Notes: generated from the letters alone by a model not told the origin. Shown: positions 3,057-42,669, counted from the first letter of the stretch. The stretch: 64,000 bases of DNA from Gammaproteobacteria bacterium (GCA_022071965.1 JAJVIQ010000021.1:1288-65287); one strand, 5' to 3'. Program-made: numbers and translations.

Positions 3057-4055
3057 TCAGGGTTGCCGGTTCAGCAGCTCGGCGGGCAGGTACGTCCCGT
3101 GCGCGGACAGATCGGTGAGCCGAAGGGAATCCGGGCTGAGTCGCTCGATGATCAGATGCAGACGCGAGATGTCCCGGAGCGTCGGACTGACCACGATATT
3201 GCAAATGGTGTCGCGGCCGATGATATTGCGCCCATTCTGCAGCACGTGCGACGTTCCGGTCTCGTCGATGAGCGTGAGCTCGTCCGCCGCCACGATGCGA
3301 AACCCATGGCGCGAGAGCATGAGTTCAATCACCTGACCCCGCTCCACGTCTATCACGACCACTTCGCCTTTCGGGAGGCGGGCGAAAGCGCTCTTCTTCG
3401 AAGAAGGCTGTGAACTGTTGCCGTGGGAATGCAGCATCACGGCCTCCCGGATCGCCGCCTCCGCCGGAGGCGTCTCCGGCTCCGGCTGCGAAACCGCCTT
3501 GGTGAGGTCGTCGGTCCGCAGGTCCAGTATCGGCTCCATGCCGAGGGCATGCTTCGTGCCTTCCTGCTTCGAGGCGCAGACGTGCTTGATGACCTCCTGC
3601 CGGGCAGCGAGGTACTGCATGTACTTCGCGAGCGCCACCTGCTGGAGCTCCTCGTATTCCTGGTCGCGCTCACGCAGCGCGCCGAGTATGTCGCGCCAGC
3701 CATGGTCGGCGGCAAACGATTCGATATCCATGCTGCGCAGGGCATGTCCTATCATCCCCGGGGTGCGCATGGCGGTGGAGAGCAGCTCCACGAGCTGCTG
3801 CTCCATGGATTTCAAGGTGTGGGACTCGCGGATGAGGTCATCGACGGGCAGCAGCATCAACTCGAGGAACTGACGGGCCGGCACGTCCGTCCTGCCGGCG
3901 AGGCTGAACTCAAATTCAGCCAGACTATTGAACGAAACGCGCTGGCCGCCCAGCTCGATGGTGAGGGGACGCGAGAAAAGCCGATTGAGCATGGTCGCGA
4001 AACTGTCCGGTTGCGTCCCCGAGGACCCGTATTTTGTAGGCGTATTTGGGCTCAT
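3057..4055 (-). CDS. FHA-domain protein with an uncharacterised ~230-aa N-terminal region
   Basis: C-terminal FHA signature '...NIIGRDTICNIVVSPTLRDISRLHLIIE...LTDLSAHGTYL'. I chose the start at ATG 4055 (MSPNTPTKY) over the tracked 4187, but it is uncertain because neither has a clear SD. Confidence 0.65.
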   Translation of the reverse strand: MSPNTPTKYGSSGTQPDSFATMLNRLFSRPLTIELGGQRVSFNSLAEFEFSLAGRTDVPARQFLELMLLPVDDLIRESHTLKSMEQQLVELLSTAMRTPGMIGHALRSMDIESFAADHGWRDILGALRERDQEYEELQQVALAKYMQYLAARQEVIKHVCASKQEGTKHALGMEPILDLRTDDLTKAVSQPEPETPPAEAAIREAVMLHSHGNSSQPSSKKSAFARLPKGEVVVIDVERGQVIELMLSRHGFRIVAADELTLIDETGTSHVLQNGRNIIGRDTICNIVVSPTLRDISRLHLIIERLSPDSLRLTDLSAHGTYLPAELLNRQP

Positions 4056-4215
4056 TGCCCAGCAAGTATAGTTGCCCAGACTTCGCGGCTTGAAGTTTAC
4101 ACCGTCACAAATCGTGAACCCAGTGTCAAGCCTTTGGCGGTCCGTCGGCCGCGCTCCGATCCACCCGCGCGCATACTCCCCGCCCATACCGGCCGGTCCG
4201 GGCGCCGCCGGGCGA

Positions 4216-5395: not shown

Positions 5396-6223
5396 ATGCC
5401 TACGACTCTCATCGATTGCGCGACGCTGCAGGGCTCGCTCGGACGCCCCGACTGGATAGTCGTGGATTGCCGGTTCGACCTGGCCGACACGACCGCCGGT
5501 CGTCGCGCTTATCTCGACGCGCACATCCCCGGCGCGCCTTATGCCGATCTGGACGTGGACTTGAGCGGGCCGAAACGCGCCGGCGCGGGGCGACATCCGC
5601 TGCCGGCGGCGCAGCGTATGCGAGAGGTCTTCGGGCGGCTCGGGATCGGGCCGCGGGCGCAGGTCGTGACCTACGATGCCGCGGGCGGCACGCTGGCGGC
5701 AGCGCGGTTGTGGTGGATGCTGCGGTACATGGGCCACGATGCGGTGGCGGTGCTGGAGGGGGGCTGGGCCGCCTGGCTGGCGACCGGATCCCCCACGGAG
5801 GCCGGCGATCGACGCGTGGCGCCAGTCCATTTCGAGGGGGAGCCTCGGAGCGAGCGGATCGTGTCGATTGATGCGGTCCGGCATGCGAGACCGCTCATCG
5901 ATGCGCGCGATCCGGCCCGCTACCGCGGTGAGGTCGAGCCCATCGATCCCGTTGCGGGCCATATTCCCGGAGCCGCGAATCATTTCTGCAGGAACAACCT
6001 CGACGCGTCGGGCAATTTTCGGCCGCGGGAGGAATTGAGGGCCATGCTGGGGCCATTGCTGGAGTCGGCCCCGGGCCCGGCGACGTTTTATTGCGGCTCC
6101 GGCGTGACCGCCTGTCACAACATACTGGCGAGCGTGCACGCGGGCTACGCGGAGCCTCGACTGTACCCGGGTTCGTGGAGCGAGTGGTGCGCGGATCCCT
6201 CCAGGCCGGTTGCCCGCGGCTGA
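5396..6223 (+). CDS. sseA: 3-mercaptopyruvate/thiosulfate sulfurtransferase (tandem rhodanese)
   Basis: 275 aa with two rhodanese halves. Active-site loop 'YCGSGVTACH'. N-terminal part 'YLDAHIPGAPYADLD' is typical of SseA/TST. Confidence 0.85.
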   Translation: MPTTLIDCATLQGSLGRPDWIVVDCRFDLADTTAGRRAYLDAHIPGAPYADLDVDLSGPKRAGAGRHPLPAAQRMREVFGRLGIGPRAQVVTYDAAGGTLAAARLWWMLRYMGHDAVAVLEGGWAAWLATGSPTEAGDRRVAPVHFEGEPRSERIVSIDAVRHARPLIDARDPARYRGEVEPIDPVAGHIPGAANHFCRNNLDASGNFRPREELRAMLGPLLESAPGPATFYCGSGVTACHNILASVHAGYAEPRLYPGSWSEWCADPSRPVARG

Positions 6224-6269
6224 GCACGTTGCCGGCCGCAGCTCGAGAGGCTGCGGCACCGGAATCGAC

Positions 6270-8297
6270 ATGGCGAGAGATCGGAGCGAGCAGATGAGCC
6301 AACGGAAGACGCGCAACGGTTTTCGCAGTGTCCTGCTCTGCTGTGCGCTGGGCCTGCAAGGCGTCGCCGGTGAAGCCGCTGCGGCGGCGCGCGAGGTGAT
6401 CGTCATCTTCGACCTGCCGGCAGAGGCGCGGGAACCGGAAGTGCTGGGCAGGGCGGCCACCAGCCTGGCCGCAGCGTTGCCCCCGGGCAGCCGCCTGGGG
6501 GCCGTCGCGTCCGATGGCCAGAACGCGAGGCTGATTACCGCGCTCGCGGAGCCCCGGGCGGCGGGCGAGGCGATAGCGAACGCAGCCCGCGAGATGATGA
6601 CGGCTGCGGACAAAGATCCGGCGGCTGCGCTGGAGCGGGCGCTCTACGAGTTGCGCATCGACGGTCGAGACGACGCATTGCCCGCCGTCGTGATGGTGAG
6701 CGACGGCAGAACGCTGATGGCCGGCGACGCGGCGGCCGAACGCCGCGCGTGGATGCTGGGGTCGCTGGCGGCGGAGGCGCAGCGCAATCACGCGCCGGTT
6801 TATGTCGTTGCCGTCTCCACCGCTGCCGACATGGCGGTGTTGCAGCCGCTCGCGCGCGCCACCGGTGCGGATTACTTTCGTGCCGAATCCGCCGCCCGGA
6901 TACCGGAAATGATGGCGCAGGTCGGTGCGGCCCTGGCAGAGGAGGATCTGCCCGCGGCCGTCGCCGCGGGCCGGACCCAGCCTGAACCTCCTTCCGTCGC
7001 GGACGCCGCCCCGCCTCCGGCGGCTCCGGCCGCCATGGCACTGCCCGTGGCGGATGTGGCCGCGGTCCATCCGGCGCCCGCAGCCGGCGCGTTGGCTGGG
7101 CAGGTGCTCGCTGGCGTCGTCGGCGCCGGGATCGCACTGGCCGCGGTGGCGGCCATGAGGGTGGCCCGCCGGCGTCGCAAGGCGCTGCCGGGTCCCGCGC
7201 CCCAGGCGCCGCAGGGGGCCGGGATGGTGGAGCAGGTCAAGGCTGTCCCGGCCGCCGCCCCGGCGGCATACCTCAACGATCTTCGCGGCACGACCCAGTT
7301 CAGCCGATATGCGCTCGGCACACGGCCCGTGGTCATTGGCCGCTCGCCCGGCAAGGACACCCGGAATTTCGATTACATCACCGCGACGCTCAATACCGTG
7401 AGCCGGCGCCACGCGGTCATCGAGTATCGCGACGGCTCCTACTGGGCCATCGATCAGGGGAGCGTCAACGGGACCAGGATCAATGGCCAGAGGATCCAGG
7501 GCGCCAGGCGCCTCTGCCATGGTGACCGCATCGCCTTGCACCGATGCGAGCTGCAATTCGAGCTCGCCGAGGTCGGCCGCGAGCCCTCCGGGACCACGGC
7601 TGGCGACGGGCACGCGCCCACGCAGGCCGTGACCACGCAGCCCGGCCGTCGCGCGGCCATCCTGTCCGAGACCCTGATCGTGCCCGCCGCCGGCGTACCC
7701 AACCAGACCACCCCGAAGACGGTGAGAAGCGTCCCGGGCGCAGGGAGCGGCAATGACGACGTGCGCACCGTGGCCGCCGCTGACGAGGAACGGGCGGCGA
7801 CCTTGCTCACGGCGGTGAGCGGCCCAGCGGACGCACCGGCCTCCGGTGCCGCCGCGGGCGCCCTGAACTCATTCATCAGCACCACGCTGCTGCGGGCGGC
7901 GACCACCGAGCAGTCGCCGCCTCCGCCAGTCCCGCCGGCGAAACCCGCTGAACCGGTTAGCCTGTTCTCCACGCTCGGTACCGGCCCGGGGGAGATGAGC
8001 ATCGAGGACTTCCTCGGATCGGACATCGTGGCGGAAGATCCCGCCGCGGCTCCGCCGCCGCACCTGCTCGCGACCCAGCCGCTCACCGACAGCAGCCCTC
8101 CGCATGGGCCCGGCAACAGCGGGCGCTACGGCGACACCATCAAACTCGCGGTGGATGATTCCGCGCAGCCTGATGCCACCACGACGTCGCTCGAAGAACT
8201 GCTTCGGGCCTTCGAGCAGCAGAAGGGCCCGGGGGATCCGTCGCAGCCGGGTGTTCCCGCCGCCGGCAAGAGCGGCGGCACAGGGCGCGAGTCGTGA
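6270..8297 (+). CDS. Membrane-anchored vWA-like / FHA-domain protein with long Pro/Ala-rich tail
   Basis: Signal/TM 'FRSVLLCCALGLQGVAG'. vWA-like strand pattern (VIVIFDL..., AVVMVSDGR, PVYVVAVS) without a DxSxS MIDAS. TM 'LAGVVGAGIALAAVAAM' then RRRR. FHA 'VVIGRSPG...VSRRHAVIEY...GSVNGTRINGQ'. About 225 aa of low-complexity C-terminus. Start at 6270 is chosen inside tracked ORF 6210. Confidence 0.7.
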   Translation: MARDRSEQMSQRKTRNGFRSVLLCCALGLQGVAGEAAAAAREVIVIFDLPAEAREPEVLGRAATSLAAALPPGSRLGAVASDGQNARLITALAEPRAAGEAIANAAREMMTAADKDPAAALERALYELRIDGRDDALPAVVMVSDGRTLMAGDAAAERRAWMLGSLAAEAQRNHAPVYVVAVSTAADMAVLQPLARATGADYFRAESAARIPEMMAQVGAALAEEDLPAAVAAGRTQPEPPSVADAAPPPAAPAAMALPVADVAAVHPAPAAGALAGQVLAGVVGAGIALAAVAAMRVARRRRKALPGPAPQAPQGAGMVEQVKAVPAAAPAAYLNDLRGTTQFSRYALGTRPVVIGRSPGKDTRNFDYITATLNTVSRRHAVIEYRDGSYWAIDQGSVNGTRINGQRIQGARRLCHGDRIALHRCELQFELAEVGREPSGTTAGDGHAPTQAVTTQPGRRAAILSETLIVPAAGVPNQTTPKTVRSVPGAGSGNDDVRTVAAADEERAATLLTAVSGPADAPASGAAAGALNSFISTTLLRAATTEQSPPPPVPPAKPAEPVSLFSTLGTGPGEMSIEDFLGSDIVAEDPAAAPPPHLLATQPLTDSSPPHGPGNSGRYGDTIKLAVDDSAQPDATTTSLEELLRAFEQQKGPGDPSQPGVPAAGKSGGTGRES

Positions 8298-35494: not shown

Positions 35495-36151
35495 ATGGCG
35501 GAGAGCGGTTTCGGGCGGGACTGTTGTGGCGTCGCATGGCAGGGTAATCCCGTGCTCCTGCGGCTCCTGGGGCTGTGCCCGCTGCTCGCGGTCTCCGACC
35601 GCGTCGTCACCGGGCTGGCCATCGCCATCCTCTTCGCGCTGACCATGCTGTGGACCCAGCCGCTGATCGCCATGTTGCGCGACGTGGTCCCGGTGGCGGT
35701 GCGCCTGCCGTGCCAGGCCGTCATCGCGGCCTGCGGGGTCACCGTGCTGCATGCGGCCGTGCAGGCCGCCCTGCCTCCTCTGGCTGCCGCCCTGGGAGTA
35801 TACCTTCCCGTGTTGGCCGGTTGCTGCCTCATCCTCGTGCGCGCCGAGGAGTCCGCGTGGCGGCGGCCGGTCATCTCGGCCGTCCGCGATGCCGTTGCGC
35901 ACGCCGTCGGCGTGATCGCGTTCATGGCGGCCTTGTCCGCTGTCCGGGAAGCGCTCGGCCACGGCACGCTGCTGCGCGACCTGGAGTTGATCGTCCCCGG
36001 CACGGGCTGGAGCGGTTTCCAGGTATTGCCCCGGGGCTGGCGCCTGCCGATCGCGTCGTTGCCCGCAGGGGCGCTGCTGCTGTTCGGGGCGGTGCTGGCG
36101 GTGCGCAACCTCATCGCTGCAGGGCGCGACGGGCCCGCCGTGCGCGCATGA
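35495..36151 (+). CDS. rsxE: RnfE/RsxE-like membrane subunit (stand-alone)
   Basis: 'NPVLLRLLGLCPLLAVS' matches E. coli RsxE 'NSALVQLLGLCPLLAVT', and 'LILVRAEES' matches 'IVVGRAEAF'. ATGA overlap with nth, as in rsx-nth synteny, but no rnfABCDG upstream. Confidence 0.7.
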   Translation: MAESGFGRDCCGVAWQGNPVLLRLLGLCPLLAVSDRVVTGLAIAILFALTMLWTQPLIAMLRDVVPVAVRLPCQAVIAACGVTVLHAAVQAALPPLAAALGVYLPVLAGCCLILVRAEESAWRRPVISAVRDAVAHAVGVIAFMAALSAVREALGHGTLLRDLELIVPGTGWSGFQVLPRGWRLPIASLPAGALLLFGAVLAVRNLIAAGRDGPAVRA

Positions 36152-36801
36152 ATGCGGCCAGGCGGGCGGCCATCTTCGAGCGATTACGGTCGGCGGATCC
36201 GGCGCCGCGCACGGAACTGCACTATTCGACCCCGTTCGAACTGCTCATCGCCGTGATCCTTTCGGCGCAGGCCACCGACGTGAGTGTCAACAAGGCCACC
36301 TCGAGGCTGTTCAGGGTCGCCAACACGCCCGCCACCATGCGTGCGCTCGGTGTGGAGGGCCTGAAAGAGCACATCAAGTCCATAGGGCTGTACAACTCCA
36401 AGGCCGCCCACATCATCAGGACCTGCGAGGCGCTCCTGCGCGATCATCACGGCGAGGTACCGCCCGATCGCGAGGCCCTGGAGAGGCTTCCCGGGGTCGG
36501 GCGCAAGACGGCGAACGTCATCCTCAACACGGCGTTCGGCCACCCGACGATCGCCGTGGACACGCACATCTTCCGGGTCGCCAACCGTACCGGGATCGCG
36601 CCGGGTCGCAACGTGCTGGAGGTCGAGCGGCGATTGCTCAGGCTCGTGCCCGCGGCCTACCGCCAGGATGCGCATCACTGGCTCATCCTGCATGGCCGCT
36701 ACGTCTGCACCGCGCGCCGGCCGCGTTGCGCCACCTGCATCATCGGCGACCTCTGCGAATGGCCGGGGCGCAGCCGGCAGCCGGCCGGGGCGGGGCCCTG
36801 A
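36148..36801 (+). CDS. nth: Endonuclease III
   Basis: 'ELHYSTPFELLIAVILSAQATDVSVNKAT', HhH-GPD 'LPGVGRKTANVILN', and Fe-S 'CTARRPRCATCIIGDLC'. Confidence 0.9.
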   Translation: MNAARRAAIFERLRSADPAPRTELHYSTPFELLIAVILSAQATDVSVNKATSRLFRVANTPATMRALGVEGLKEHIKSIGLYNSKAAHIIRTCEALLRDHHGEVPPDREALERLPGVGRKTANVILNTAFGHPTIAVDTHIFRVANRTGIAPGRNVLEVERRLLRLVPAAYRQDAHHWLILHGRYVCTARRPRCATCIIGDLCEWPGRSRQPAGAGP

Positions 36802-36804
36802 GCG

Positions 36805-37236
36805 ATGTTTCTGCAGGATCGGGATGCCGCACGGCGCATGTTTCTCGCGGCCTGGCGCAAGCAGCAGGCCGGGGAGGCGCTCGAGCCCCTCGAGGCGCTG
36901 ATCGCCGGGGTCGTCGCCCTGCATCCCGAATACCACGGGCTTCTGACCTCGGGGGAGGCGGCGATTGCGCAGGAGTACACGCCCGAGCGCGGCGTGACCA
37001 ACCCGTTCCTGCACATGGGCATGCATATTGCCTTGCGCGAGCAGGTGGGCACCGACCGGCCCGCCGGCATCGCCGGGCTCTACCGGCGGGCGGTGGAACG
37101 GCGCGGCGACCCGCATGCCGTGGAGCATGACATGATGGAGTGCCTGGGCGAGGTCCTCTGGCGGGCGCAGCGGGACAATGCGGTGCCCGACGAAGCCGCC
37201 TATTTCGAGTGCCTCAGCCGACGATTGTCGCGATGA
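36805..37236 (+). CDS. DUF1841-family protein
   Basis: 143 aa. 'RRMFLAAWRKQQAGEALEPLEALIAGVVALHPEYH' resembles the DUF1841 N-terminus, recognised from memory only. Confidence 0.55.
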   Translation: MFLQDRDAARRMFLAAWRKQQAGEALEPLEALIAGVVALHPEYHGLLTSGEAAIAQEYTPERGVTNPFLHMGMHIALREQVGTDRPAGIAGLYRRAVERRGDPHAVEHDMMECLGEVLWRAQRDNAVPDEAAYFECLSRRLSR

Positions 37237-38516
37237 ATCTCCCCGTGGATCCCGATAGGACCGTGCCGCGCCAGGAGCGCGCCATCGAGCGGCAGGTGCG
37301 CGTGCTGGCCGAGGCCATTCAGGAGTTCGCCACCTCGCTCAATCTGCAGGAGACCCTGCGCCGTGCGATTGCCACCTTCATCGAGCAGATGAACGCCGAT
37401 GCCGGTTCGATCTTCCTTCTCGAGAACGAGAACAGCGAGCTGGTCTGCCACCAGTGCGCCGGTCCCGTGGACATCACCGGTCTGCGCTTTCCCGCGGGCG
37501 AGGGCATCGTCGGGCGCACGGTGGCGGAGCGGCGCACGCAGATCGTCCGCAATGCGCATGACGAAACGCAGTTCTATCCCGCCATCGATGCCGGCACCGG
37601 CTTTCTCACCCGCTCGATACTCTGCGCGCCGCTGGTCGTGCGCGGCCAGAGCATCGGCGCGCTGGAGCTCATCAACAAGCGCACCGTCGACGGTCAGTTC
37701 GAGGAGGAGGACAGGCATCTGGCCACCGCGCTCGCCTCGGCGGCGGCACTCGCCATCCACAACGCCCGCATGGTCGCCAAGCTGGTCGACCAGGAGCGCG
37801 TGCGCAAGGAACTGGAGATGGTGCGCGAGGTGCAGGTCAATCTGCTGCCCCGCCCCACGCACATGGAGGAGCTGCCGGTCGTCGCCATCAACATACCGGC
37901 GCGCGAGGTCTCGGGCGACTTCTACGATTACTTCGCGCTGGGGAGCTCGCGGGTGTACTTCAACATCGCCGACGTGTCCGGCAAGGGCATGAATACCGCG
38001 CTGTGGATGGCGAAGACGACCGGCCTCCTGCACGCCCTGGCCAAGACCACCGACGATCTCGGCCGTCTGCTCGCCCGCGTCAACGAGGAGCTATACGAGA
38101 CCTCTTCGCACGGGATGTTCGTCACCGTGGTCACCGGCTTAATCGATCTGCATCGCGACGAGATTGTGCTGGCCAATGCGGGTCATCTGCCGGCGCTGTA
38201 CCGCGGTACCGACGGCGTGTTCAGGGAGCTGCCCGCGGACGGTCCGCCGCTCGGCGTGGTGCCCGAGGCCGAGTATCGCTGCACGCGCTTCCCGCTCGCC
38301 GGCGGCAGCCTGTACATTTACACGGACGGCGTCATCGAATCGCCGGACGGCAAGGGTCAGATCCTGGGCGTCGCGGGGCTCGGGCGGCTCATCGATTCGG
38401 TGGCGTCGTTGGCCCCGCGCGCCCGCCTCGAGGAGATGGTGGCGATCCTGCGGGGCAGGGGCCATCGCCAGCGCGACGACATTACTCTGATGCTGATAGA
38501 GCGGGACCGTCAATGA
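37233..38516 (+). CDS. GAF-domain SpoIIE/PP2C-family protein phosphatase (RsbU-like)
   Basis: ATGA overlap with the upstream gene. GAF region ('AGSIFLLENENSELV...GEGIVGRTV...LCAPLVVRGQSIGALELINK'). PP2C/SpoIIE motifs 'GDFYDY', 'IADVSGKGMNTALWMA', 'LYIYTDGVIE', 'DDITLMLI'. Confidence 0.8.
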   Translation: MNLPVDPDRTVPRQERAIERQVRVLAEAIQEFATSLNLQETLRRAIATFIEQMNADAGSIFLLENENSELVCHQCAGPVDITGLRFPAGEGIVGRTVAERRTQIVRNAHDETQFYPAIDAGTGFLTRSILCAPLVVRGQSIGALELINKRTVDGQFEEEDRHLATALASAAALAIHNARMVAKLVDQERVRKELEMVREVQVNLLPRPTHMEELPVVAINIPAREVSGDFYDYFALGSSRVYFNIADVSGKGMNTALWMAKTTGLLHALAKTTDDLGRLLARVNEELYETSSHGMFVTVVTGLIDLHRDEIVLANAGHLPALYRGTDGVFRELPADGPPLGVVPEAEYRCTRFPLAGGSLYIYTDGVIESPDGKGQILGVAGLGRLIDSVASLAPRARLEEMVAILRGRGHRQRDDITLMLIERDRQ

Positions 38517-38929
38517 CCGGGCAGCGCATCCTGAAGGTCAAGTTTCCGGCCGACCCGCGCATATTGCGCAAGGTGCGCGAGCATGTGCGCGCGGCCTGCG
38601 AACGCGGGGGATGCTGCGAGCAGGTCGTCAGCCAGATCGTGCTTGCCGTCAACGAGGCCTGCAGCAACATCATCCGCCACGCCTACAAGGGCAGCAGCAC
38701 AGGTGAAATCATCCTCGAAATCTTTAATAATGGCCGGGAACTGGAGTTTCATCTGCGGGATTTCGCCGAGCCCGTGGATCTCACCTCGATCGGTCCGCGC
38801 GATCCGCGCGAGATCAAGCCCGGTGGTCTTGGAACGCTGTTTATCCGTGAGATCATGGATGACTGCGCTTATGGTCACGTGCAGGGCAAGGCCGGGAATT
38901 TCCTGCATATGAAGAAGCGCATCGCCTGA
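38513..38929 (+). CDS. RsbW/SpoIIAB-like serine protein kinase (anti-sigma-factor fold)
   Basis: ATGA overlap with the phosphatase gene. N-box 'AVNEACSNIIRHAY' and G-box 'KPGGLGTLFIREIMD'. 138 aa. Confidence 0.8.
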   Translation: MTGQRILKVKFPADPRILRKVREHVRAACERGGCCEQVVSQIVLAVNEACSNIIRHAYKGSSTGEIILEIFNNGRELEFHLRDFAEPVDLTSIGPRDPREIKPGGLGTLFIREIMDDCAYGHVQGKAGNFLHMKKRIA

Positions 38930-38979
38930 TGCGCGGCGGGCAGGGTATGTTTGGCTGAGTGCGGCAGGAGTGCGTCGAG

Positions 38980-39312
38980 ATGAGCTATGAGGTGCGCGAT
39001 GACAGTGGCTATGCGGTCGTTGAGCTGACCGGCGACGTGGATCTGTCGGCCTCGCCGGAGGCGCGTTCTGCCATACTCGGCTGCCTGGCGCAGGCGCGAA
39101 ACGTCCTCGTGGATCTTTCACGCGTCACCTACATAGACAGCTCGGGCGTGGCGAGCCTGGTCGAAGGCTACCAGACCGCGAAGAAGGGAAGGCTGCGGTT
39201 CGGCCTGATCGGGGTGAGCGAGGCCGCGCTGAGCGTGCTGAAGCTGGCGCGTCTGGACAAGGTCTTTCCCATCCACGCGACGATCAACGAGCGCATCCGG
39301 GCGGATGGCTGA
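38980..39312 (+). CDS. STAS-domain protein (RsbV/SpoIIAA/MlaB-like antagonist) with phospho-Ser motif
   Basis: 'VVELTGDVDLSASPE...LVDLSRVTYIDSSGVASLVE' keeps the DSSG phosphorylation motif of SpoIIAA/RsbV. SD CAGGAG lies 9 nt upstream of ATG 38980. The 3' end overlaps the mlaE-like start by 8 nt. Confidence 0.8.
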   Translation: MSYEVRDDSGYAVVELTGDVDLSASPEARSAILGCLAQARNVLVDLSRVTYIDSSGVASLVEGYQTAKKGRLRFGLIGVSEAALSVLKLARLDKVFPIHATINERIRADG

Positions 39313-40117
39313 CACGGCTGGGCAATCCTCAGCGCTCCTCATCGAGCATCTCGGCCGGACCGCCGTTGCGGCCATCGAGGAGTTCGGATACTACTTCCTG
39401 CTCTGGCTCGAGAGCCTGTACTGGCTGTTGTTCGGCTGGATGAAGAAGCAGCCTGTTCGGCTGGCGTCGATGGCCGCGCAGATGGTGACCATCGGCATCG
39501 CCGCCACGCCCATCGTCACCATCCTCGCGTTCACCATAGGCGTGATGCTCGCCATCCAGGGCATAGCGACGCTGAAGACCTTCGGCGCCGAGGAGCAGGT
39601 CGTGATGGGCATCGCGCTGTCGGTCACGCGCGAGTTCGCCGCTCTGATCACGGCGATCGTGGTCGCCGGCCGCTCGGGCTCGGCCCTGGCGGCGCGCATC
39701 GGTACCATGCAGGTCTCCCAGGAGATCGACGCGCTGCGGGTCATGAGCATCAACCCCGTCCGGTATCTTGCCTCCCCGGTACTGGCGGCCATGATGCTCA
39801 TGGTGCCGTCGCTGACCCTCATCGCCGATTTCGCCGCCCTGCTCGGCGGGGCCGTGTTCACGAATCTCGAGCTGGGGCTGTCCTACGCCGCCTACCTCGA
39901 CCGCACGCTGGGCTCGCTGGTGTTCGATGACGTGCGGCAGGGCCTGATAAAGAGCCTGGTCTTCGCCACGATCATCACCGTGATCGGGGTGAGCAACGGC
40001 TTCCAGGTCACCGGCGGCGCCGAGGGGGTCGGGCGCGCCACCACGCGCGCGGTGGTGCTGTCGATCTCCTACATCGTGGTGGCGGACATGCTGTTCACCT
40101 ATTTCCTGAATCGCTGA
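39305..40117 (+). CDS. MlaE-family ABC transporter permease
   Basis: 270 aa. 'IVVAGRSGSALAARIGTMQVSQEIDALRVMSINP' is the MlaE/TTG2B signature (EIDAL). Confidence 0.85.
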   Translation: MADTAGQSSALLIEHLGRTAVAAIEEFGYYFLLWLESLYWLLFGWMKKQPVRLASMAAQMVTIGIAATPIVTILAFTIGVMLAIQGIATLKTFGAEEQVVMGIALSVTREFAALITAIVVAGRSGSALAARIGTMQVSQEIDALRVMSINPVRYLASPVLAAMMLMVPSLTLIADFAALLGGAVFTNLELGLSYAAYLDRTLGSLVFDDVRQGLIKSLVFATIITVIGVSNGFQVTGGAEGVGRATTRAVVLSISYIVVADMLFTYFLNR

Positions 40118-40123
40118 GACGCC

Positions 40124-40924
40124 GTGACCCGATCCGACACCCAGCCCGTCATCGAGGTCAGCGAACTGACCGCTCACTACGGCTCGCGCAAGATCCTCGA
40201 CAACATCGACTTCCACGTCGAGCCCGGGGAGATCCGCATCATCATGGGCGGCAGCGGCTCCGGCAAGAGCACGCTCCTGCGGCACCTGCTCGGACTGAAC
40301 CTTCCCACCAGCGGCAGGGTCCGGATGCTTGGCGTGGACGTCGCCAGGGCCTCCGCCGGGGAGATGCACGAGCTGCGCAGGAACATCGGCGTGGCGTTCC
40401 AGGGCGGCGCGCTGTTCAGTTCGATGACCGTGGGCGAAAACATCAAACTGCCGCTGCGGGAACATGCACGCCTCGATGAGACGACCATGGACATCATGGT
40501 GCGGCTCAAGCTCGAGGTGGTGAACCTTGCCGGCTTCGAGCACCTGATGCCCGCGCAGCTCTCCGGCGGCATGATCAAGCGCGCCGCGGTGGCGAGGGCG
40601 GTCATCATGGACCCGAAATTGCTGTTCTTCGACGAACCCTCCGCCGGCCTGGATCCGGTCGTTTCCGCGGAGCTCGACGAGATGATCCTTCGGCTGCGTG
40701 AGGCGATGAACATGAGCATCGTGGTGGTGACCCACGAGCTGGAGAGTGCTTTCAAGATCGCCGATCGCATAACCGTGCTCGACCATGGCCGCATCCTCAT
40801 GACCGGCACCGTCCCGGAGGTCCAGAACTGCCCGCACCCGCGTGTCCAGGACCTGCTCAACCGCAGACCGCGCCGCGCGGAGATCAATGCGGAGGATTAC
40901 CTGCAGCGGCTGACCGGCGGATGA
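40124..40924 (+). CDS. MlaF-like ABC transporter ATP-binding protein
   Basis: Walker A 'GGSGSGKST', signature 'LSGGMIKRAAVARA', Walker B 'LLFFDEPSAGLD'. GTG start. Confidence 0.85.
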   Translation: MTRSDTQPVIEVSELTAHYGSRKILDNIDFHVEPGEIRIIMGGSGSGKSTLLRHLLGLNLPTSGRVRMLGVDVARASAGEMHELRRNIGVAFQGGALFSSMTVGENIKLPLREHARLDETTMDIMVRLKLEVVNLAGFEHLMPAQLSGGMIKRAAVARAVIMDPKLLFFDEPSAGLDPVVSAELDEMILRLREAMNMSIVVVTHELESAFKIADRITVLDHGRILMTGTVPEVQNCPHPRVQDLLNRRPRRAEINAEDYLQRLTGG

Positions 40925-41002
40925 TGCGGCGAATCGGATGAGGCCTGGGTGCCGCGGCGCTCCTGCCGTGGGCGATCACGATATGGGGGGTGGGGGAGAG
41001 GC

Positions 41003-42028
41003 ATGCGACGTGACAACATCAATTACCTGGCGGTGGGCCTGTTCGTCCTGGCCGTCGGCGTGGCATTCCTGTGGGCGCTGTACCGGCTCACCGGCAGCAC
41101 CGGACCGGTCGATCGCTACTACGCCATGTTCGAGAACGTCGGCGGCATCAAGTACGGGACCGTGACTTACTACAAGGGCTATCCGGTCGGGCAGGTCGAA
41201 TCGGTCCAGCCCGTCGTCACGGACAGCACGATCAACTACCGCGTCGAGTTCAGCGTCACCAAGGACTGGAAGATGCCGGCCGGCAGCGCCGCGGCCATCG
41301 TGCTGCCGGGCCCCCTGGCGCCCGCGGTGATCGACATCCGCGAGGGCAAGGGACCGGGATGGATGAAGCCCGGCGAGGAGCTCGACGGCGTCGAGCAGGC
41401 CGACATGTTCTCCGCGCTCAACGACGCGGCGGCGGAATTCAAGAAGCTCACCAGCGAGGGGAAGCCGCTGCTGCGGAGTCTCAACGACCGGGTCACCGCG
41501 CTGAGTCTCGAGTACGAATCGCTGTCGAAGGGCCAGCTGCGGCCGCTGCTCGCGAGCCTGCGCCAGCGGGTGGATGATCCGGAGCTGTTCGACGAGCTCA
41601 AGAAGGTGGTCAAGAAGCTCGACGCCAGCGCCGAGGCGCTGCTGCTGACGGTCAATGCCGAGAACCGCCAGCACATCGCCTCCATCCTGACGAACGCGGA
41701 CAGGGGTTCGGCGCAACTGACCGAGCTGCTGGCCCGCATCGAGGAATCCCGCAAGCAGATGCACGATCTGTTTCTCGCCATGGATGCCCTGGTCAGGGAG
41801 AACAGGGAGGGTATCAACCAGACCGTCGGCGATGCCTCGGTCACGATGCGGGAGTTGCGCGGCAGCATCGAGGTGGTGGCAGACAACATCGATTCGATCG
41901 TGCATTATCTGGAAGGCAGCGGCCGCAACATGCAGGAGTTCAGCCGCGAGGTGCGCGAGAATCCGAGCGTACTCTTCCGCGGCGAATCGACGCCCGACCC
42001 GCTGCCGGCGGGGAATAACAACAATTGA
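41003..42028 (+). CDS. MCE/MlaD-family substrate-binding membrane protein
   Basis: N-terminal TM 'YLAVGLFVLAVGVAFLW', an MCE beta-barrel region ('GGIKYGTVTYYKGYPVGQVESV'), and a long helical C-terminal extension. Confidence 0.8.
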   Translation: MRRDNINYLAVGLFVLAVGVAFLWALYRLTGSTGPVDRYYAMFENVGGIKYGTVTYYKGYPVGQVESVQPVVTDSTINYRVEFSVTKDWKMPAGSAAAIVLPGPLAPAVIDIREGKGPGWMKPGEELDGVEQADMFSALNDAAAEFKKLTSEGKPLLRSLNDRVTALSLEYESLSKGQLRPLLASLRQRVDDPELFDELKKVVKKLDASAEALLLTVNAENRQHIASILTNADRGSAQLTELLARIEESRKQMHDLFLAMDALVRENREGINQTVGDASVTMRELRGSIEVVADNIDSIVHYLEGSGRNMQEFSREVRENPSVLFRGESTPDPLPAGNNNN

Positions 42029-42036
42029 GGAACCGG

Positions 42037-42669
42037 ATGATCGCTTTCGCACGGGCCATCGCGCCCCTGCTGCTGGTGGCCGGAATGCTCGGCGGCTGCG
42101 GGAGCAGTGCGCCGATCCCCACCGATACGTACTATCGCCTGGCTGACCCGCGAGTCGCCGCGGCTGCGGGACCGCCGCTGGTCGACGGGGGAATACTGGT
42201 GGAGGCATTCCAGGCCGATGCCCTCTACCGGGAGCGCCCGTTGCTTTTCAGCGACGACGCGGCCGACCTGACGCTGAAGCAGTACCATCATCACCATTGG
42301 CAGGAATCCCCGCCGCGGCTGCTGCGCGAACAGCTGATCCTGTATCTGCGCGCCGCCGATGCCGCGCCATGGGTCGCGAGCCGCGCCGATGAGACGCCGG
42401 CGCTGACCGTACGCGGGCGCATCCGGCGCTTCGAGCACATCATCGGCGCGGATGCGGTGACCGCGCGTGTCGGCCTGGAGCTGCAGGTGCTGGGACAGGA
42501 TGGAGGCGTGCTCGTGCTGCGCGATTATCACCATGACGAGGGGGCAGCGGGCAAGGACGTGGCCAGCGTGGTGAGGGCGATGGACGCCGCCGTCAACTCG
42601 GTCTTCGGGCGGTTTCTCGCGGACGCGCGAGCCGCCGTGCGCGCGCACGCGACCGACCGGCCGCCGTGA
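42037..42669 (+). CDS. PqiC/DUF330-like ABC-transport auxiliary lipoprotein
   Basis: Lipobox 'LVAGMLGGC' followed by 'PTDTYYRL', typical of this family. ATG 42037 (SD GAGGA) is preferred to the tracked TTG at 42025. Confidence 0.7.
   Translation: MIAFARAIAPLLLVAGMLGGCGSSAPIPTDTYYRLADPRVAAAAGPPLVDGGILVEAFQADALYRERPLLFSDDAADLTLKQYHHHHWQESPPRLLREQLILYLRAADAAPWVASRADETPALTVRGRIRRFEHIIGADAVTARVGLELQVLGQDGGVLVLRDYHHDEGAAGKDVASVVRAMDAAVNSVFGRFLADARAAVRAHATDRPP

What the first reader, a model, noticed from the sequence alone, without database searches (positions are those of the whole stretch)
37233..42669. Complete partner-switching module (GAF-PP2C, RsbW-like kinase, phosphorylatable STAS) wired into an Mla/MCE-type transporter operon, with no sigma factor in cis
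Seen in sequence: three regulatory genes and four transporter genes lie on one strand. The junctions are ATGA overlaps (37233, 38513), an 8-nt overlap of the STAS stop with the mlaE-like start (39305-39312), a 6-nt gap, a 78-nt gap and an 8-nt gap. The STAS protein keeps the SpoIIAA/RsbV phospho-serine motif (YIDSSGVASL). The kinase has intact N- and G-boxes (NEACSNIIRHAY, GGLGTLFIRE). The phosphatase has the SpoIIE/PP2C metal motifs (DVSGKG, YTDGV). No sigma factor or anti-sigma target is encoded in the window. Established knowledge: RsbU/RsbW/RsbV-type modules normally control a sigma factor. Separately, the canonical Mla system uses a STAS protein (MlaB) that binds and modulates the MlaF ATPase. 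Inference: here the phosphorylation state of the STAS protein may gate the MlaF-like ATPase. That would make an MCE lipid transporter with a PqiC-like lipoprotein the output of a partner switch, that is, phospho-regulated envelope lipid trafficking. I do not know of a characterised example, and I cannot verify novelty without a search.
Basis: partly seen in the sequence, partly recalled or inferred. Interest (0 to 1): 0.75.

Follow-up and report, generated by a model that had tools for sequence, protein, structure and literature searches.

The report
Phospho-switch module wired to lipid transporter
A phosphatase, a kinase and their small STAS substrate protein are encoded in one operon with an envelope lipid transporter in hundreds of uncultured bacteria, so the transporter is probably switched on and off by phosphorylation of its STAS subunit, something proposed for E. 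coli MlaB but never shown.

Summary
GAF-SpoIIE phosphatase, RsbW-like kinase, STAS (Ser54 in YIDSSG), MlaE, MlaF-like ATPase, long MCE protein and ABC_trans_aux lipoprotein lie on the + strand with the stated overlaps and gaps. I found no sigma factor in the window.

The arrangement is strongly conserved. Upstream of MlaE orthologues in metagenome contigs, STAS is present in 65/65, the kinase in 55/55 and the phosphatase in 44/44 evaluable loci. Gene order and sensor domain (GAF or HDOD) vary while the linkage holds.

The transporter is of the Brucella Mpc (Mla-Pqi chimeric) kind, where a STAS domain is fused to MlaE at this position. In E. coli MlaB the equivalent Thr52 lies at the centre of the MlaF interface.

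Best reading (confidence 0.55): a partner switch whose output is the transporter. The main caveat is that 18 of 76 STAS-anchored genome loci keep the module without the transporter in cis, so it is not the only possible output. The STAS is RsbV/SpoIIAA-like, not an MlaB equivalog. No binding or phosphorylation could be tested. I rate it a new variant of known kinds, interest 0.68.

The parts
36148..36801 (+). nth (endonuclease III). It lies directly upstream and is syntenic in the clade that contains the window. Probably not functionally part of the module.
   Evidence: Translation. tblastn finds it at a fixed offset upstream in 46 of 68 evaluable loci.
36805..37236 (+). DUF1841 protein. Its stop overlaps the phosphatase start (ATGA). 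Function unknown.
   Evidence: Pfam PF08897, 6e-55. Junction. Present in 37 of 68 evaluable loci, only in clade II.
37233..38516 (+). Sensor phosphatase: an N-terminal GAF domain (residues about 20-190) plus a SpoIIE/PPM phosphatase domain (about 239-424).
   Evidence: Pfam. Metal-binding Asp residues D229, D247, D365, D415 and D416 are 100% conserved. The GAF domain is closest to CyaB2 (1YKD, 1e-19) and PDE2A GAF-B (1MC0, 3e-18). The residues I take to line the ligand pocket are conserved across orthologues.
38513..38929 (+). RsbW-like GHKL serine kinase, single domain, 138 aa.
   Evidence: Pfam HATPase_c_2, 1e-26. Best PDB match is B. subtilis RsbW (6M36, 3e-9). E48, N52, H56, D83 and G104-G107 are 98-100% conserved. 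The G1 box is atypical (D-F/Y-A-x-P).
38980..39312 (+). Single-domain STAS protein (110 aa) with phospho-acceptor Ser54 (YIDSSG) at the N-terminus of helix alpha-2.
   Evidence: Pfam STAS. TIGR00377 score 67.9, above its cut-off. D53-S54-S55-G56 are invariant in all orthologues. AlphaFold2 model has pLDDT 92, with helix 54-69. hhalign aligns S54 with MlaB T52.
39305..40117 (+). MlaE-family permease. Its start overlaps the STAS stop by 8 nt.
   Evidence: Pfam MlaE, 6e-68. TIGR00056 score 215, above its cut-off. The junction overlap is conserved.
40124..40924 (+). MlaF-like ABC ATPase with an LSGGM signature motif and a conserved C-terminal extension (…AEDYLQRLTGG).
   Evidence: Best PDB hits are MlaF proteins. 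NCBIfam MlaF is the best hit but below its cut-off. The C-terminal motif D-[AE]-[DE]-Y-[LM]-x-R-L-T is conserved in orthologues. E. coli MlaF ends …GDYHADLLPGS.
41003..42028 (+). Membrane-anchored single-MCE protein (341 aa) with a long C-terminal helical region.
   Evidence: Pfam MlaD at residues 56-133 of the longer ORF. TIGR00996 MCE family. Weak match of residues 206-337 to the PqiB C-terminus. PDB hits are MlaD and Mce1 proteins.
42037..42669 (+). ABC_trans_aux (DUF330, PqiC family) lipoprotein with lipobox LGGC.
   Evidence: Pfam PF03886, 8e-10. Sequence. Present in 43/43 evaluable MlaE-anchored loci.
42666..44918 (+). CHASE2 sensor fused to a class III adenylate cyclase. Its start overlaps the lipoprotein stop (GTGA). 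Probable input to the GAF phosphatase (inferred).
   Evidence: Pfam CHASE2 3e-60 and Guanylate_cyc 1e-23. The Lys in GTIDKYMGD and the Thr in AYTVLGD match P. aeruginosa CyaB (3R5G), whereas Cya2 guanylate cyclase (2W01) has Glu at the Lys position. Found only with GAF-type phosphatases: 29/60 versus 0/28.
44958..44996 (.). Hairpin flanked by A and U runs, between the cyclase and the convergent FHA gene. Probable bidirectional terminator and end of the transcription unit.
   Evidence: Sequence. Fold, where the 71-nt stretch folds no better than shuffles (z = -1.2). The assignment therefore rests on its form and position only.

Best explanation
This is a conserved operon in which a partner-switching module (sensor PP2C phosphatase, RsbW-like kinase, STAS protein) has an MCE-type trans-envelope lipid transporter as its output, rather than a sigma factor.

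The transporter is of the Mpc (Mla-Pqi chimeric) kind. It consists of an MlaE permease, an MlaF-like ATPase, a long MCE protein that probably forms a needle, and a PqiC-like outer-membrane lipoprotein.

Proposed mechanism, all steps inferred:
1. The unphosphorylated STAS protein plays the part of MlaB or of the STAS domain of MpcE. [quoted passage not shown] This stabilises or activates the MlaF2E2 complex.
2. The kinase phosphorylates Ser54 at the start of helix alpha-2, in the middle of that face. Phosphorylation releases STAS and turns transport down.
3. The phosphatase reverses this when its sensor domain is triggered.
4. In the window's clade the sensor is a GAF domain of the cNMP-binding type, and the operon ends with a CHASE2 adenylate cyclase. 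The likely chain is: envelope signal, cAMP, GAF-PP2C, dephosphorylated STAS, transporter on.
5. In other clades an HDOD domain replaces GAF and no cyclase is linked.

Shown here: gene content, catalytic motifs, conservation of linkage, homology of the parts.
Inferred: every protein-protein contact, the phosphorylation itself, the sign of the regulation, and the cAMP link.
For: - Seen from the transporter side, STAS is present in 65/65, the kinase in 55/55 and the PP2C in 44/44 evaluable loci upstream of MlaE orthologues (52-70% identity) in 80 metagenome loci.
- Seen from the STAS side, 58 of 76 evaluable species loci have the transporter directly downstream.
- The STAS stop and mlaE start overlap in 79 of 135 loci, by exactly 8 nt in 44.
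- Linkage survives rearrangement. L068 has the SpoIIE gene after the lipoprotein gene. L078 has kinase-STAS-MlaF-MlaE-short MlaD. Some loci have fused PP2C-kinase genes. The sensor is GAF or HDOD.
- No other gene is conserved next to the block across clades, and no sigma factor was found among the window ORFs scanned with Pfam.
- In other Mpc-type operons with the same gene order, a STAS domain is fused to the N-terminus of MlaE: Brucella MpcE (PMC12436622) and Azospirillum L082 (Pfam STAS + MlaE). The Paracoccus, Klebsiella and Pseudomonas plasmid permeases have an N-terminal extension of similar length with an LDTAGA motif, but Pfam STAS was not significant there. The fusion was already read as a functional link in PMC1810536.
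- Ser54 aligns with MlaB Thr52. Thr52 lies at the centre of the MlaF-MlaB interface and T52E weakens binding (PMC7367683).
- The ATPase has the Mla/TGD-type LSGGM signature. It also has a conserved C-terminal extension ending in D-Y-x3-L, as in E. coli MlaF, where that segment docks at the MlaF/MlaB groove (PMC7367683).
- Kinase and phosphatase catalytic residues and Ser54 are invariant.
- The STAS protein is the most conserved small protein of the block (58-97% identity, against 33-61% for the kinase outside the three nearest genomes), as expected of a hub with several partners.
- For the cAMP link: GAF similarity, the cyclase substrate residues, and the cyclase occurring only with GAF-type PP2C.
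Against: - 18 of 76 STAS-anchored loci keep an intact phosphatase-kinase-STAS module without the transporter in cis. Ten are followed directly by the cyclase and eight by neither.
- These loci are scattered over the tree (at least 7 places), which implies repeated loss of the transporter genes with retention of the module. Their STAS sequences show no relaxation.
- So the transporter is either elsewhere in those genomes (untested) or it is not the only output.
- The STAS protein is closer to RsbV, SpoIIAA and TM1442 than to MlaB. By sequence: 4e-11 versus 0.02-0.07. By predicted fold: TM-score 0.81-0.87 versus 0.66-0.68. It scores 24 bits against a cut-off of 90 for the NCBIfam MlaB model.
- The cyclase/GAF co-occurrence is confounded by phylogeny, because all cyclase-linked loci are in one clade.
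- 26 GAF-type loci have the transporter but no adjacent cyclase.
- The kinase G1 box is atypical.
- No binding, phosphorylation or transcript data exist.
Confidence: 0.55

Rival explanations
1. Classical geometry with the kinase as the effector. The RsbW-like kinase itself binds and holds inactive a transporter component (the MlaF-like ATPase or the cytoplasmic N-terminus of MlaE), or the cyclase. Unphosphorylated STAS relieves this by capturing the kinase. The transporter is still the output, but STAS never touches it.
For: - The module has the exact RsbU/V/W composition.
- The STAS is RsbV-like in sequence and in predicted fold.
- The same synteny evidence applies as for the best explanation.
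- Some relatives have fused PP2C-kinase genes.
Against: - The precedents that link STAS to MlaFE are direct. MlaB binds MlaF, and STAS is fused to MlaE in Mpc-type operons (PMC7367683, PMC12436622).
- The translational coupling is between STAS and mlaE, not between the kinase gene and mlaE.
- I know of no example of an RsbW-type kinase binding an ABC ATPase.
Confidence: 0.15
2. The module regulates a target encoded elsewhere, either a sigma factor as in RsbW/SigB or another protein. The transporter genes are merely co-transcribed cargo or part of the same stress regulon, and STAS phosphorylation does not act on the transporter.
For: - The module persists, intact and equally conserved, in 18 of 76 loci without the transporter in cis.
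- STAS proteins about 63% identical occur in other contexts without a transporter in cis: L052 and L065, and in L065 an HDOD-PP2C-kinase fusion precedes the STAS gene.
- The STAS and kinase are RsbV/RsbW-like.
Against: - No MlaE orthologue of this subfamily was seen without the module (65/65).
- Linkage survives gene-order shuffling.
- No sigma factor or other conserved partner lies in cis, either in the window or in about 160 loci.
- STAS/MlaE fusions and the MlaB precedent point to a direct role.
Confidence: 0.2
3. The STAS protein is a constitutive MlaB-like structural subunit, and the neighbouring kinase and phosphatase act mainly on other substrates. These could belong to the adjacent FHA / PPM phosphatase / CHASE2 Ser/Thr-kinase signalling cluster or be the cyclase.
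For: - In the window's clade the module is always next to a convergent FHA-PPM-CHASE2 kinase cluster, and often next to the cyclase.
- In loci without the transporter, the cyclase directly follows STAS.
Against: - HATPase_c_2 kinases and SpoIIE phosphatases next to a STAS protein with an invariant DSSG site are, in every studied case I know, a cognate trio.
- In clade I the FHA cluster and the cyclase are absent, yet the trio plus the transporter remains.
Confidence: 0.05

Closest known systems
E. coli MlaFEDB with its STAS subunit MlaB (Kolich et al. 2020, PMC7367683; Thong et al. 2016, PMC5016091)
   Same: - MlaE permease, MlaF-type ATPase (LSGGM signature, C-terminal extension with D-Y-x3-L) and an MCE protein.
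- A single-domain STAS protein encoded in the operon.
- Ser54 aligns with Thr52 at the start of helix alpha-2.
   Different: - MlaB has no dedicated kinase or phosphatase, and its phosphorylation has never been shown.
- The present STAS is RsbV/SpoIIAA-like, has the extra C-terminal helix, and fails the MlaB model.
- The STAS gene lies before mlaE here, not at the end of the operon.
- Neither MlaC nor MlaA appeared in the Pfam scans of the operon and about 45 window ORFs. The MCE protein is long and a PqiC-like lipoprotein is present.
Brucella abortus Mpc (Mla-Pqi chimeric) system MpcEFDA (PMC12436622) and its relatives on plasmids (L081, L082, L164, L165)
   Same: - Same gene order and parts: [STAS]-MlaE, MlaF, a long MCE protein with a helical C-terminal region, and an ABC_trans_aux/PqiC-like lipoprotein.
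- STAS sits immediately N-terminal of MlaE.
   Different: - In Mpc-type systems the N-terminal STAS(-like) region is fused to the permease, carries D-T-x-G, and has no kinase or phosphatase genes beside it.
- Here STAS is a free protein with D-S-S-G and has its own kinase and sensor phosphatase.
- The ATPase C-terminus differs (…EYFHGPRGRAA… against …DEYLxRLT…).
RsbU/RsbV/RsbW and SpoIIE/SpoIIAA/SpoIIAB partner switches
   Same: - PPM/SpoIIE phosphatase with an N-terminal sensor domain.
- GHKL serine kinase of about 140 aa.
- STAS substrate with the conserved Ser.
- Best sequence and fold matches are to these proteins.
   Different: No sigma factor in the window or in about 160 related loci. 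The genes are embedded in a transporter operon.
Partner switches with non-sigma outputs: HsbR/HsbA acting on the diguanylate cyclase HsbD (PMC5085249); SiaABCD (PMC8457831); SypE/SypA (PMC10120452); the Anabaena HenR STAS module that regulates a glycosyltransferase (PMC13555669)
   Same: A phosphorylatable STAS (or STAS-like) protein is itself the effector and binds an enzyme rather than freeing a sigma factor.
   Different: - None of these outputs is an ABC or MCE transporter.
- Their input domains differ. From my own knowledge they are mostly receiver domains, whereas here the input is GAF or HDOD.

Membership tests
Partner-switching module (RsbU/RsbV/RsbW type) | PPM/SpoIIE phosphatase with intact metal-binding aspartates | tested here: met
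   Pfam SpoIIE, 1e-40. D229, D247, D365, D415 and D416 are 100% conserved in 74 orthologues.
Partner-switching module (RsbU/RsbV/RsbW type) | Small GHKL serine kinase (HATPase_c_2) with N box and G2 box | tested here: met
   Pfam, 1e-26. Matches RsbW 6M36 at 3e-9. E48, N52 and GGLG are 98-100% conserved. The G1 box is atypical (D-F-A-E-P). The protein is below the NCBIfam RsbW equivalog cut-off (47.7 against 145).
Partner-switching module (RsbU/RsbV/RsbW type) | Single-domain STAS with a conserved phosphorylatable Ser/Thr at the N-terminus of helix alpha-2 | tested here: met
   TIGR00377 score 67.9, above 53.45. DSSG is invariant. In the model the helix starts at residue 54. Best fold matches are TM1442, RsbV and SpoIIAA.
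Partner-switching module (RsbU/RsbV/RsbW type) | A sigma factor (or other protein) sequestered by the kinase | tested here: not met
   No sigma factor in cis in the window and no conserved extra neighbour in about 160 loci. A target encoded elsewhere cannot be excluded with these tools.
Partner-switching module (RsbU/RsbV/RsbW type) | Actual phosphorylation and dephosphorylation of STAS, and mutually exclusive binding | not testable with these tools
   Needs biochemistry.
MlaB (NCBIfam NF033618 equivalog) | Scores above the curated cut-off of the MlaB model | tested here: not met
   24.2 bits against a cut-off of 90, matching only residues 43-95. PDB MlaB chains score E = 0.02-0.07. Foldseek ranks them 43-45.
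MlaB (NCBIfam NF033618 equivalog) | STAS protein encoded in an MlaFE operon, with Ser/Thr at the Thr52 position | tested here: met
   The gene overlaps mlaE. hhalign gives 88% probability and aligns S54 with T52.
MlaB (NCBIfam NF033618 equivalog) | Binds the helical subdomain of MlaF and is needed for MlaF association and activity | not testable with these tools
   Inferred only, from PMC7367683 and from synteny.
Mpc-type (Mla-Pqi chimeric) MCE transporter | MlaE permease plus MlaF-type ATPase with the LSGGM signature | tested here: met
   Pfam MlaE, 6e-68. TIGR00056 above its cut-off. The ATPase's best hits are MlaF proteins, and LSGGM is present in its sequence.
Mpc-type (Mla-Pqi chimeric) MCE transporter | Single-MCE protein much longer than MlaD, with a helical C-terminal region | tested here: met
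   341 aa, against 188 aa for the E. coli MlaD ORF in L083. The MCE domain is N-terminal. Weak match to the PqiB C-terminus, 2.7e-5. Needle formation itself is not tested.
Mpc-type (Mla-Pqi chimeric) MCE transporter | PqiC-family (ABC_trans_aux/DUF330) lipoprotein as the last transporter gene | tested here: met
   Pfam PF03886, 8e-10, with lipobox LGGC. No sequence hit to solved PqiC.
Mpc-type (Mla-Pqi chimeric) MCE transporter | STAS domain fused to the N-terminus of the permease | tested here: not met
   Here STAS is a separate 110-aa protein whose stop overlaps the permease start. A fusion with a Pfam STAS match was verified only in L082. L081, L164 and L165 have a similar N-terminal extension with an LDTAGA motif but no significant STAS match.
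Canonical Mla pathway (MlaFEDCB + MlaA) | Periplasmic MlaC and outer-membrane MlaA partners, and a short MlaD | tested here: not met
   Neither MlaC nor MlaA appeared in the operon or among the scanned window ORFs. The MCE protein is long. The rest of the genome was not seen.
cNMP-binding GAF domains (CyaB1/2, PDE2/5/10) | Close similarity to cNMP-binding GAFs, with the NKFDE-type motif and pocket residues | tested here: inconclusive
   The best PDB matches are all cNMP-binding GAFs (1YKD 1e-19, 1MC0 3e-18). N-K-x6-F-x3-D is present, but the final E is not. The Ser, I/V-D, T-G-F, T-R and E-L-x-N-K positions are conserved. My assignment of these as pocket residues is from memory of the PDE2A structure. 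Ligand binding is untested.
Class III adenylate cyclase | Catalytic domain with Lys and Asp/Thr substrate-specifying residues | tested here: met
   Pfam Guanylate_cyc, 1e-23. The alignment to CyaB 3R5G and Cya2 2W01 shows Lys (GTIDKYMGD) and Thr (AYTVLGD).

The most novel reading that the evidence does not exclude
A complete second-messenger-to-lipid-transport circuit sits in one operon:
1. An envelope-facing CHASE2 adenylate cyclase makes cAMP.
2. cAMP switches on a GAF-PP2C phosphatase.
3. The phosphatase dephosphorylates a free STAS protein.
4. STAS then leaves its kinase and docks on the MlaF-like ATPase.
5. This assembles or activates a trans-envelope MCE lipid conduit.

If true, this would be the first natural case of a phospho-regulated MlaB-type subunit. 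It would also be the first ABC transporter found as the output of a bacterial partner switch. The core of the circuit, without the cyclase, is conserved in several hundred gamma- and betaproteobacterial species.
Probability: 0.3. Interest if true: 0.82.

Novelty: new variant of a known kind. Interest (0 to 1): 0.68.

Why it matters
- How MCE/Mla lipid transporters are regulated after translation is an open question. Kolich et al. (PMC7367683) showed that MlaB Thr52 lies in the MlaF interface. They asked explicitly whether MlaB is phosphoregulated, but no kinase is known for it.
- This operon family encodes the kinase, the phosphatase and the STAS substrate alongside the transporter. The question therefore becomes directly testable with purified proteins.
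- It would add ABC transporters to the short list of non-sigma outputs of partner switches.
- It would link cAMP (or the HDOD-sensed signal) to outer-membrane lipid homeostasis.
- It gives a function to a gene block present in at least about 600 species-level genomes, mostly uncultured Gammaproteobacteria that include sulfur oxidisers and symbionts.
- My five searches of the held library (three aimed at this combination) found no paper describing a partner-switching module linked to an Mla/MCE operon. Absence from that library does not prove it is unpublished.

Tried and rejected
1. Complex prediction.
2. Covariation between STAS and MlaF, the kinase or MlaE. I used APC-corrected mutual information on 103-125 paired sequences. 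The top pairs were dominated by ragged N-termini and Neff was about 60-96, so the result is uninformative and was discarded.
3. Search for natural fusions among the nearest STAS relatives.
   - P0187 (STAS+MlaE) diverges in the last STAS helix and looks like a frameshift artefact. I rejected it as evidence.
   - P0152 is STAS joined to part of the lipoprotein, possibly a deletion scar.
   - Fusion evidence came instead from annotated plasmid records: a Pfam STAS + MlaE permease in L082, and STAS-length N-terminal extensions in L081, L164 and L165. The literature supplies the Brucella MpcE case.
4. Test for relaxed STAS conservation in loci without the transporter. No difference was found, so STAS conservation cannot be attributed to the transporter.
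5. PDB sequence search with the lipoprotein found no PqiC hit. Its family assignment rests on Pfam only.
6. Consensus promoter and terminator scan. No convincing internal + strand terminator lies between 37233 and 42669, and no informative promoter was found. Continuity of the transcript remains an inference from overlaps.
7. The idea that the whole arrangement is peculiar to this genome is rejected.
8. A sigma factor hidden in the window is rejected as far as Pfam on about 45 ORFs can tell.
9. Only the 120 best hits are listed, so a negative result would not have been interpretable.

Full report
**1. Observation**

The + strand between 36.1 and 45.0 kb carries an uninterrupted string of genes:

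| Gene | Coordinates |
|---|---|
| nth | 36148-36801 |
| DUF1841 | 36805-37236 |
| GAF-SpoIIE phosphatase | 37233-38516 |
| HATPase_c_2 kinase | 38513-38929 |
| STAS | 38980-39312 |
| MlaE | 39305-40117 |
| MlaF-like ATPase | 40124-40924 |
| MCE protein | 41003-42028 |
| ABC_trans_aux lipoprotein | 42037-42669 |
| CHASE2 class III cyclase | 42666-44918 |

- Every quoted motif is correct.
The cyclase start overlaps the lipoprotein stop (GTGA).
- The only terminator-shaped element is a hairpin flanked by A and U runs at 44958-44996, shared with the convergent FHA gene.
- A Pfam scan of about 45 ORFs over the whole 64 kb found no sigma factor.

**2. Conservation, seen from both sides**

*Anchored on STAS.*
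I took the 80 best loci (58-97% identity), nearly all uncultured Gammaproteobacteria plus some Rhodocyclales.
- The kinase is upstream in 73/73 loci and the phosphatase in 70/73.
- MlaE+MlaF follow directly in 58/76 loci.
- In 10/76 loci the cyclase follows STAS directly with no transporter.
- In 8/76 loci neither follows in the usual form. One of these, L078, has MlaF-MlaE-short MlaD after STAS in a different order.

*Anchored on MlaE.* In 80 metagenome loci with 52-70% identity:

| Gene | Present / evaluable |
|---|---|
| STAS (directly upstream) | 65/65 |
| kinase | 55/55 |
| phosphatase | 44/44 |
| MlaF | 62/62 |
| MCE | 50/51 |
| lipoprotein | 43/43 |
| cyclase | 0/36 |

- The dependence is therefore asymmetric. 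This transporter subfamily was never seen without the module, but the module can exist without the transporter in cis.
- The STAS stop and the mlaE start overlap in 79 of 135 loci, by exactly 8 nt in 44.

**3. Variation that keeps the linkage**

- A neighbour-joining tree of concatenated STAS+kinase+PP2C shows two large clades.
- Clade II contains the window. It has GAF-PP2C, is usually preceded by nth-DUF1841, and is followed by a convergent FHA / PPM phosphatase / CHASE2 Ser/Thr-kinase cluster. The cyclase occurs only here.
- Most clade I loci have an HDOD domain in place of GAF; a few, such as L038 and L060, keep a GAF. Clade I has none of those neighbours, but it has the same kinase-STAS-MlaE-MlaF-MCE-lipoprotein string.
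- L068 has a sensor-less SpoIIE gene after the lipoprotein gene.
- L078 has kinase-STAS-MlaF-MlaE-short MlaD, which is a canonical Mla order. Its MlaF carries the same C-terminal motif.
- Some loci fuse the PP2C and the kinase.
- All-against-all clustering of about 1,900 neighbouring ORFs found no further gene conserved across clades.
- The functional unit is therefore the seven genes, with interchangeable input domains.

**4. What the parts are**

- *Trio.* The phosphatase, kinase and STAS are a textbook partner-switching trio by Pfam, NCBIfam, PDB sequence matches (RsbW, TM1442, SpoIIAA) and predicted fold (pLDDT 92, TM-score 0.81-0.87 to RsbV, SpoIIAA and TM1442). Ser54 lies at the start of helix alpha-2. 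Catalytic residues and DSSG are invariant.
- *Transporter.* It is not a canonical Mla system. There is no MlaC or MlaA, the MCE protein is 341 aa, its tail weakly resembles the PqiB C-terminus, and a PqiC-family lipoprotein is present. This is the architecture described in 2025 as the Brucella Mpc (Mla-Pqi chimeric) system MpcEFDA, proposed to span the periplasm (PMC12436622).
- *STAS fusions.* In MpcE a STAS domain "homologous to MlaB" is fused to the N-terminus of the permease. I looked at four-gene operons of this type on plasmids of Paracoccus, Azospirillum, Klebsiella and Pseudomonas. All have a permease about 100 residues longer at the N-terminus, with an L-D-T-x-G-A motif. Pfam recognises that extension as STAS only in Azospirillum (L082); in the other three the match is absent or not significant. 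In the window the STAS is a free protein at the same position.
- *ATPase.* It has the Mla/TGD-specific LSGGM signature. It also has a C-terminal extension ending …EDYLQRLTGG, conserved as D-[AE]-[DE]-Y-[LM]-x-R-L-T in all orthologues. E. coli MlaF ends …GDYHADLLPGS. There, Tyr261, Leu265 and Leu266 dock in the groove between MlaF and MlaB (PMC7367683).
- *GAF domain.* Its best solved relatives are all cyclic-nucleotide-binding GAFs: CyaB2 at 1e-19 and PDE2A GAF-B at 3e-18. The residues I take to line the pocket are conserved.
- *Cyclase.* It carries Lys and Thr at the substrate-specifying positions, like the adenylate cyclase CyaB of P. aeruginosa.
- *GAF-cyclase association.* The cyclase occurs with GAF-type phosphatases in 29/60 loci and with non-GAF phosphatases in 0/28. 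This association is confounded by phylogeny.

**5. Most likely mechanism (confidence 0.55)**

- *Shown:* the gene content, intact catalytic sites, the invariant phospho-site, the tight and ancient linkage, and the homology of each part.
- *From established knowledge:* MlaB binds the helical subdomain of MlaF with its helical face. Thr52 is at the centre of that interface, T52E weakens binding, and MlaB is needed for MlaF to stay on MlaE (PMC7367683, PMC5016091). In SpoIIAA and RsbV the equivalent Ser is phosphorylated by the partner kinase, which abolishes binding.
- *Inferred chain:*
  1. Unphosphorylated STAS acts as the MlaB-equivalent and turns the transporter on.
  2. The kinase competes for STAS and phosphorylates Ser54, which turns the transporter off.
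  3. The sensor phosphatase resets it.
  4. In the window's clade the signal is probably cAMP made by the co-operonic CHASE2 cyclase. In clade I it is whatever HDOD senses.
- The sign of the regulation and the cAMP step are the weakest links.

**6. What speaks against it, and the rivals**

- The main objection is that 18 of 76 STAS-anchored loci keep an intact module without the transporter. These loci are scattered over at least 7 places in the tree, and their STAS conservation is unchanged.
- Either the transporter sits elsewhere in those genomes, which I could not test, or the module has a second output.
- In addition, the STAS is RsbV-like rather than MlaB-like. It scores 24 bits against a cut-off of 90, and MlaB ranks 43-45 in the fold search.
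- Rivals:
  - The kinase, not STAS, contacts the transporter (0.15).
  - The real target is encoded elsewhere, for example a sigma factor, and the transporter is only co-transcribed (0.20).
  - STAS is a constitutive subunit and the enzymes serve the neighbouring FHA/STK/cyclase network (0.05).
- Taken together, I put the probability that the module controls the transporter in some way at about 0.7.

**7. Relation to what is known, and novelty**

- Partner switches with non-sigma outputs exist: HsbA acting on HsbD (PMC5085249), SiaABCD (PMC8457831), SypA (PMC10120452) and the Anabaena HenR module (PMC13555669).
- STAS subunits or fused STAS domains of MlaFE-type transporters are also known (PMC7367683, PMC12436622, PMC1810536).
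- What I did not find described is the two together. Surveys of MCE gene neighbourhoods mention STAS only as MlaB or as a fusion (bioRxiv 10.1101/159053; PMC1810536). A review of STAS-only proteins does not mention Mla, ABC transporters or lipids at all. Three targeted full-text searches returned nothing on this combination.
- Kolich et al. state that whether MlaB is phosphorylated "remains to be determined".
- I therefore rate this a new variant of known kinds. It is not categorically new, but it makes a stated open question directly testable.

**8. Dead ends**

- Mutual-information covariation was uninformative.
- An apparent STAS-MlaE fusion among the nearest relatives (P0187) is probably a frameshift artefact.
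- The lipoprotein has no sequence match to solved PqiC.
- The consensus promoter/terminator scan gave nothing decisive.

Noticed in passing
window 42666-44918 (+): A CHASE2 sensor fused to a class III adenylate cyclase (Lys/Thr substrate residues) starts with a GTGA overlap on the lipoprotein stop. It is the last gene before the terminator-like hairpin. In relatives it occurs only together with GAF-type phosphatases, and in 10 loci it follows STAS directly with no transporter.
   Followed up: yes
window 45024-49169 (-): A convergent cluster of an FHA-domain protein (45024-45761), a PPM Ser/Thr phosphatase (45776-46798) and a CHASE2 Ser/Thr protein kinase (46623-49169). It is syntenic with the partner-switching module in the whole clade that contains the window, also where the transporter and the cyclase are missing. 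Two CHASE2 sensors therefore flank one locus.
   Followed up: partly
window 3057-4187 (-) and 6210-8297 (+): Two further FHA-domain proteins are encoded in the same 64-kb window. This suggests an unusually dense Ser/Thr-phosphorylation signalling content.
   Followed up: no
window 36805-37236 (+): The stop of the DUF1841 gene overlaps the phosphatase start (ATGA). It is conserved upstream of the module only in the GAF/nth clade. Its function is unknown, and it may be an accessory component.
   Followed up: partly
L078 1774-4899; L068 2597-7423: Alternative arrangements exist. L078 has kinase-STAS-MlaF-MlaE-short MlaD (canonical Mla order, with no phosphatase on the contig). L068 has kinase-STAS-MlaE-MlaF-MCE-lipoprotein followed by a sensor-less SpoIIE phosphatase.
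   Followed up: yes
proteins P0131, P0184, P0207, P0218 (830-844 aa): These are large proteins with a C-terminal STAS domain of this same family (profile E-values 1e-34 to 6e-23). In P0131 there is a weak match to the TLC ATP/ADP-transporter family. This may be another transporter-linked use of this STAS.
   Followed up: no
protein P0152 (259 aa): A STAS of this family continues in frame into the middle of an ABC_trans_aux-like lipoprotein sequence. It looks like a deletion that removed mlaE, mlaF and the MCE gene, and is possibly a snapshot of transporter loss.
   Followed up: no
L052 30-859; L065 7860-10830: STAS proteins about 63% identical to the window's occur without a transporter. They are followed by a conserved 169-aa protein with no Pfam family. 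In L065 the STAS gene is preceded by an HDOD-SpoIIE-HATPase_c_2 fusion protein; in L052 the contig starts at the STAS gene.
   Followed up: partly
window 35495-36801 (+): An rnfE-like ORF (assigned from its sequence and position only) followed by nth, as in the rsx/rnf-nth operons of other Gammaproteobacteria, lies directly upstream with only 3 nt between the nth stop and the DUF1841 start. The module may be read through from the rnf promoter.
   Followed up: no
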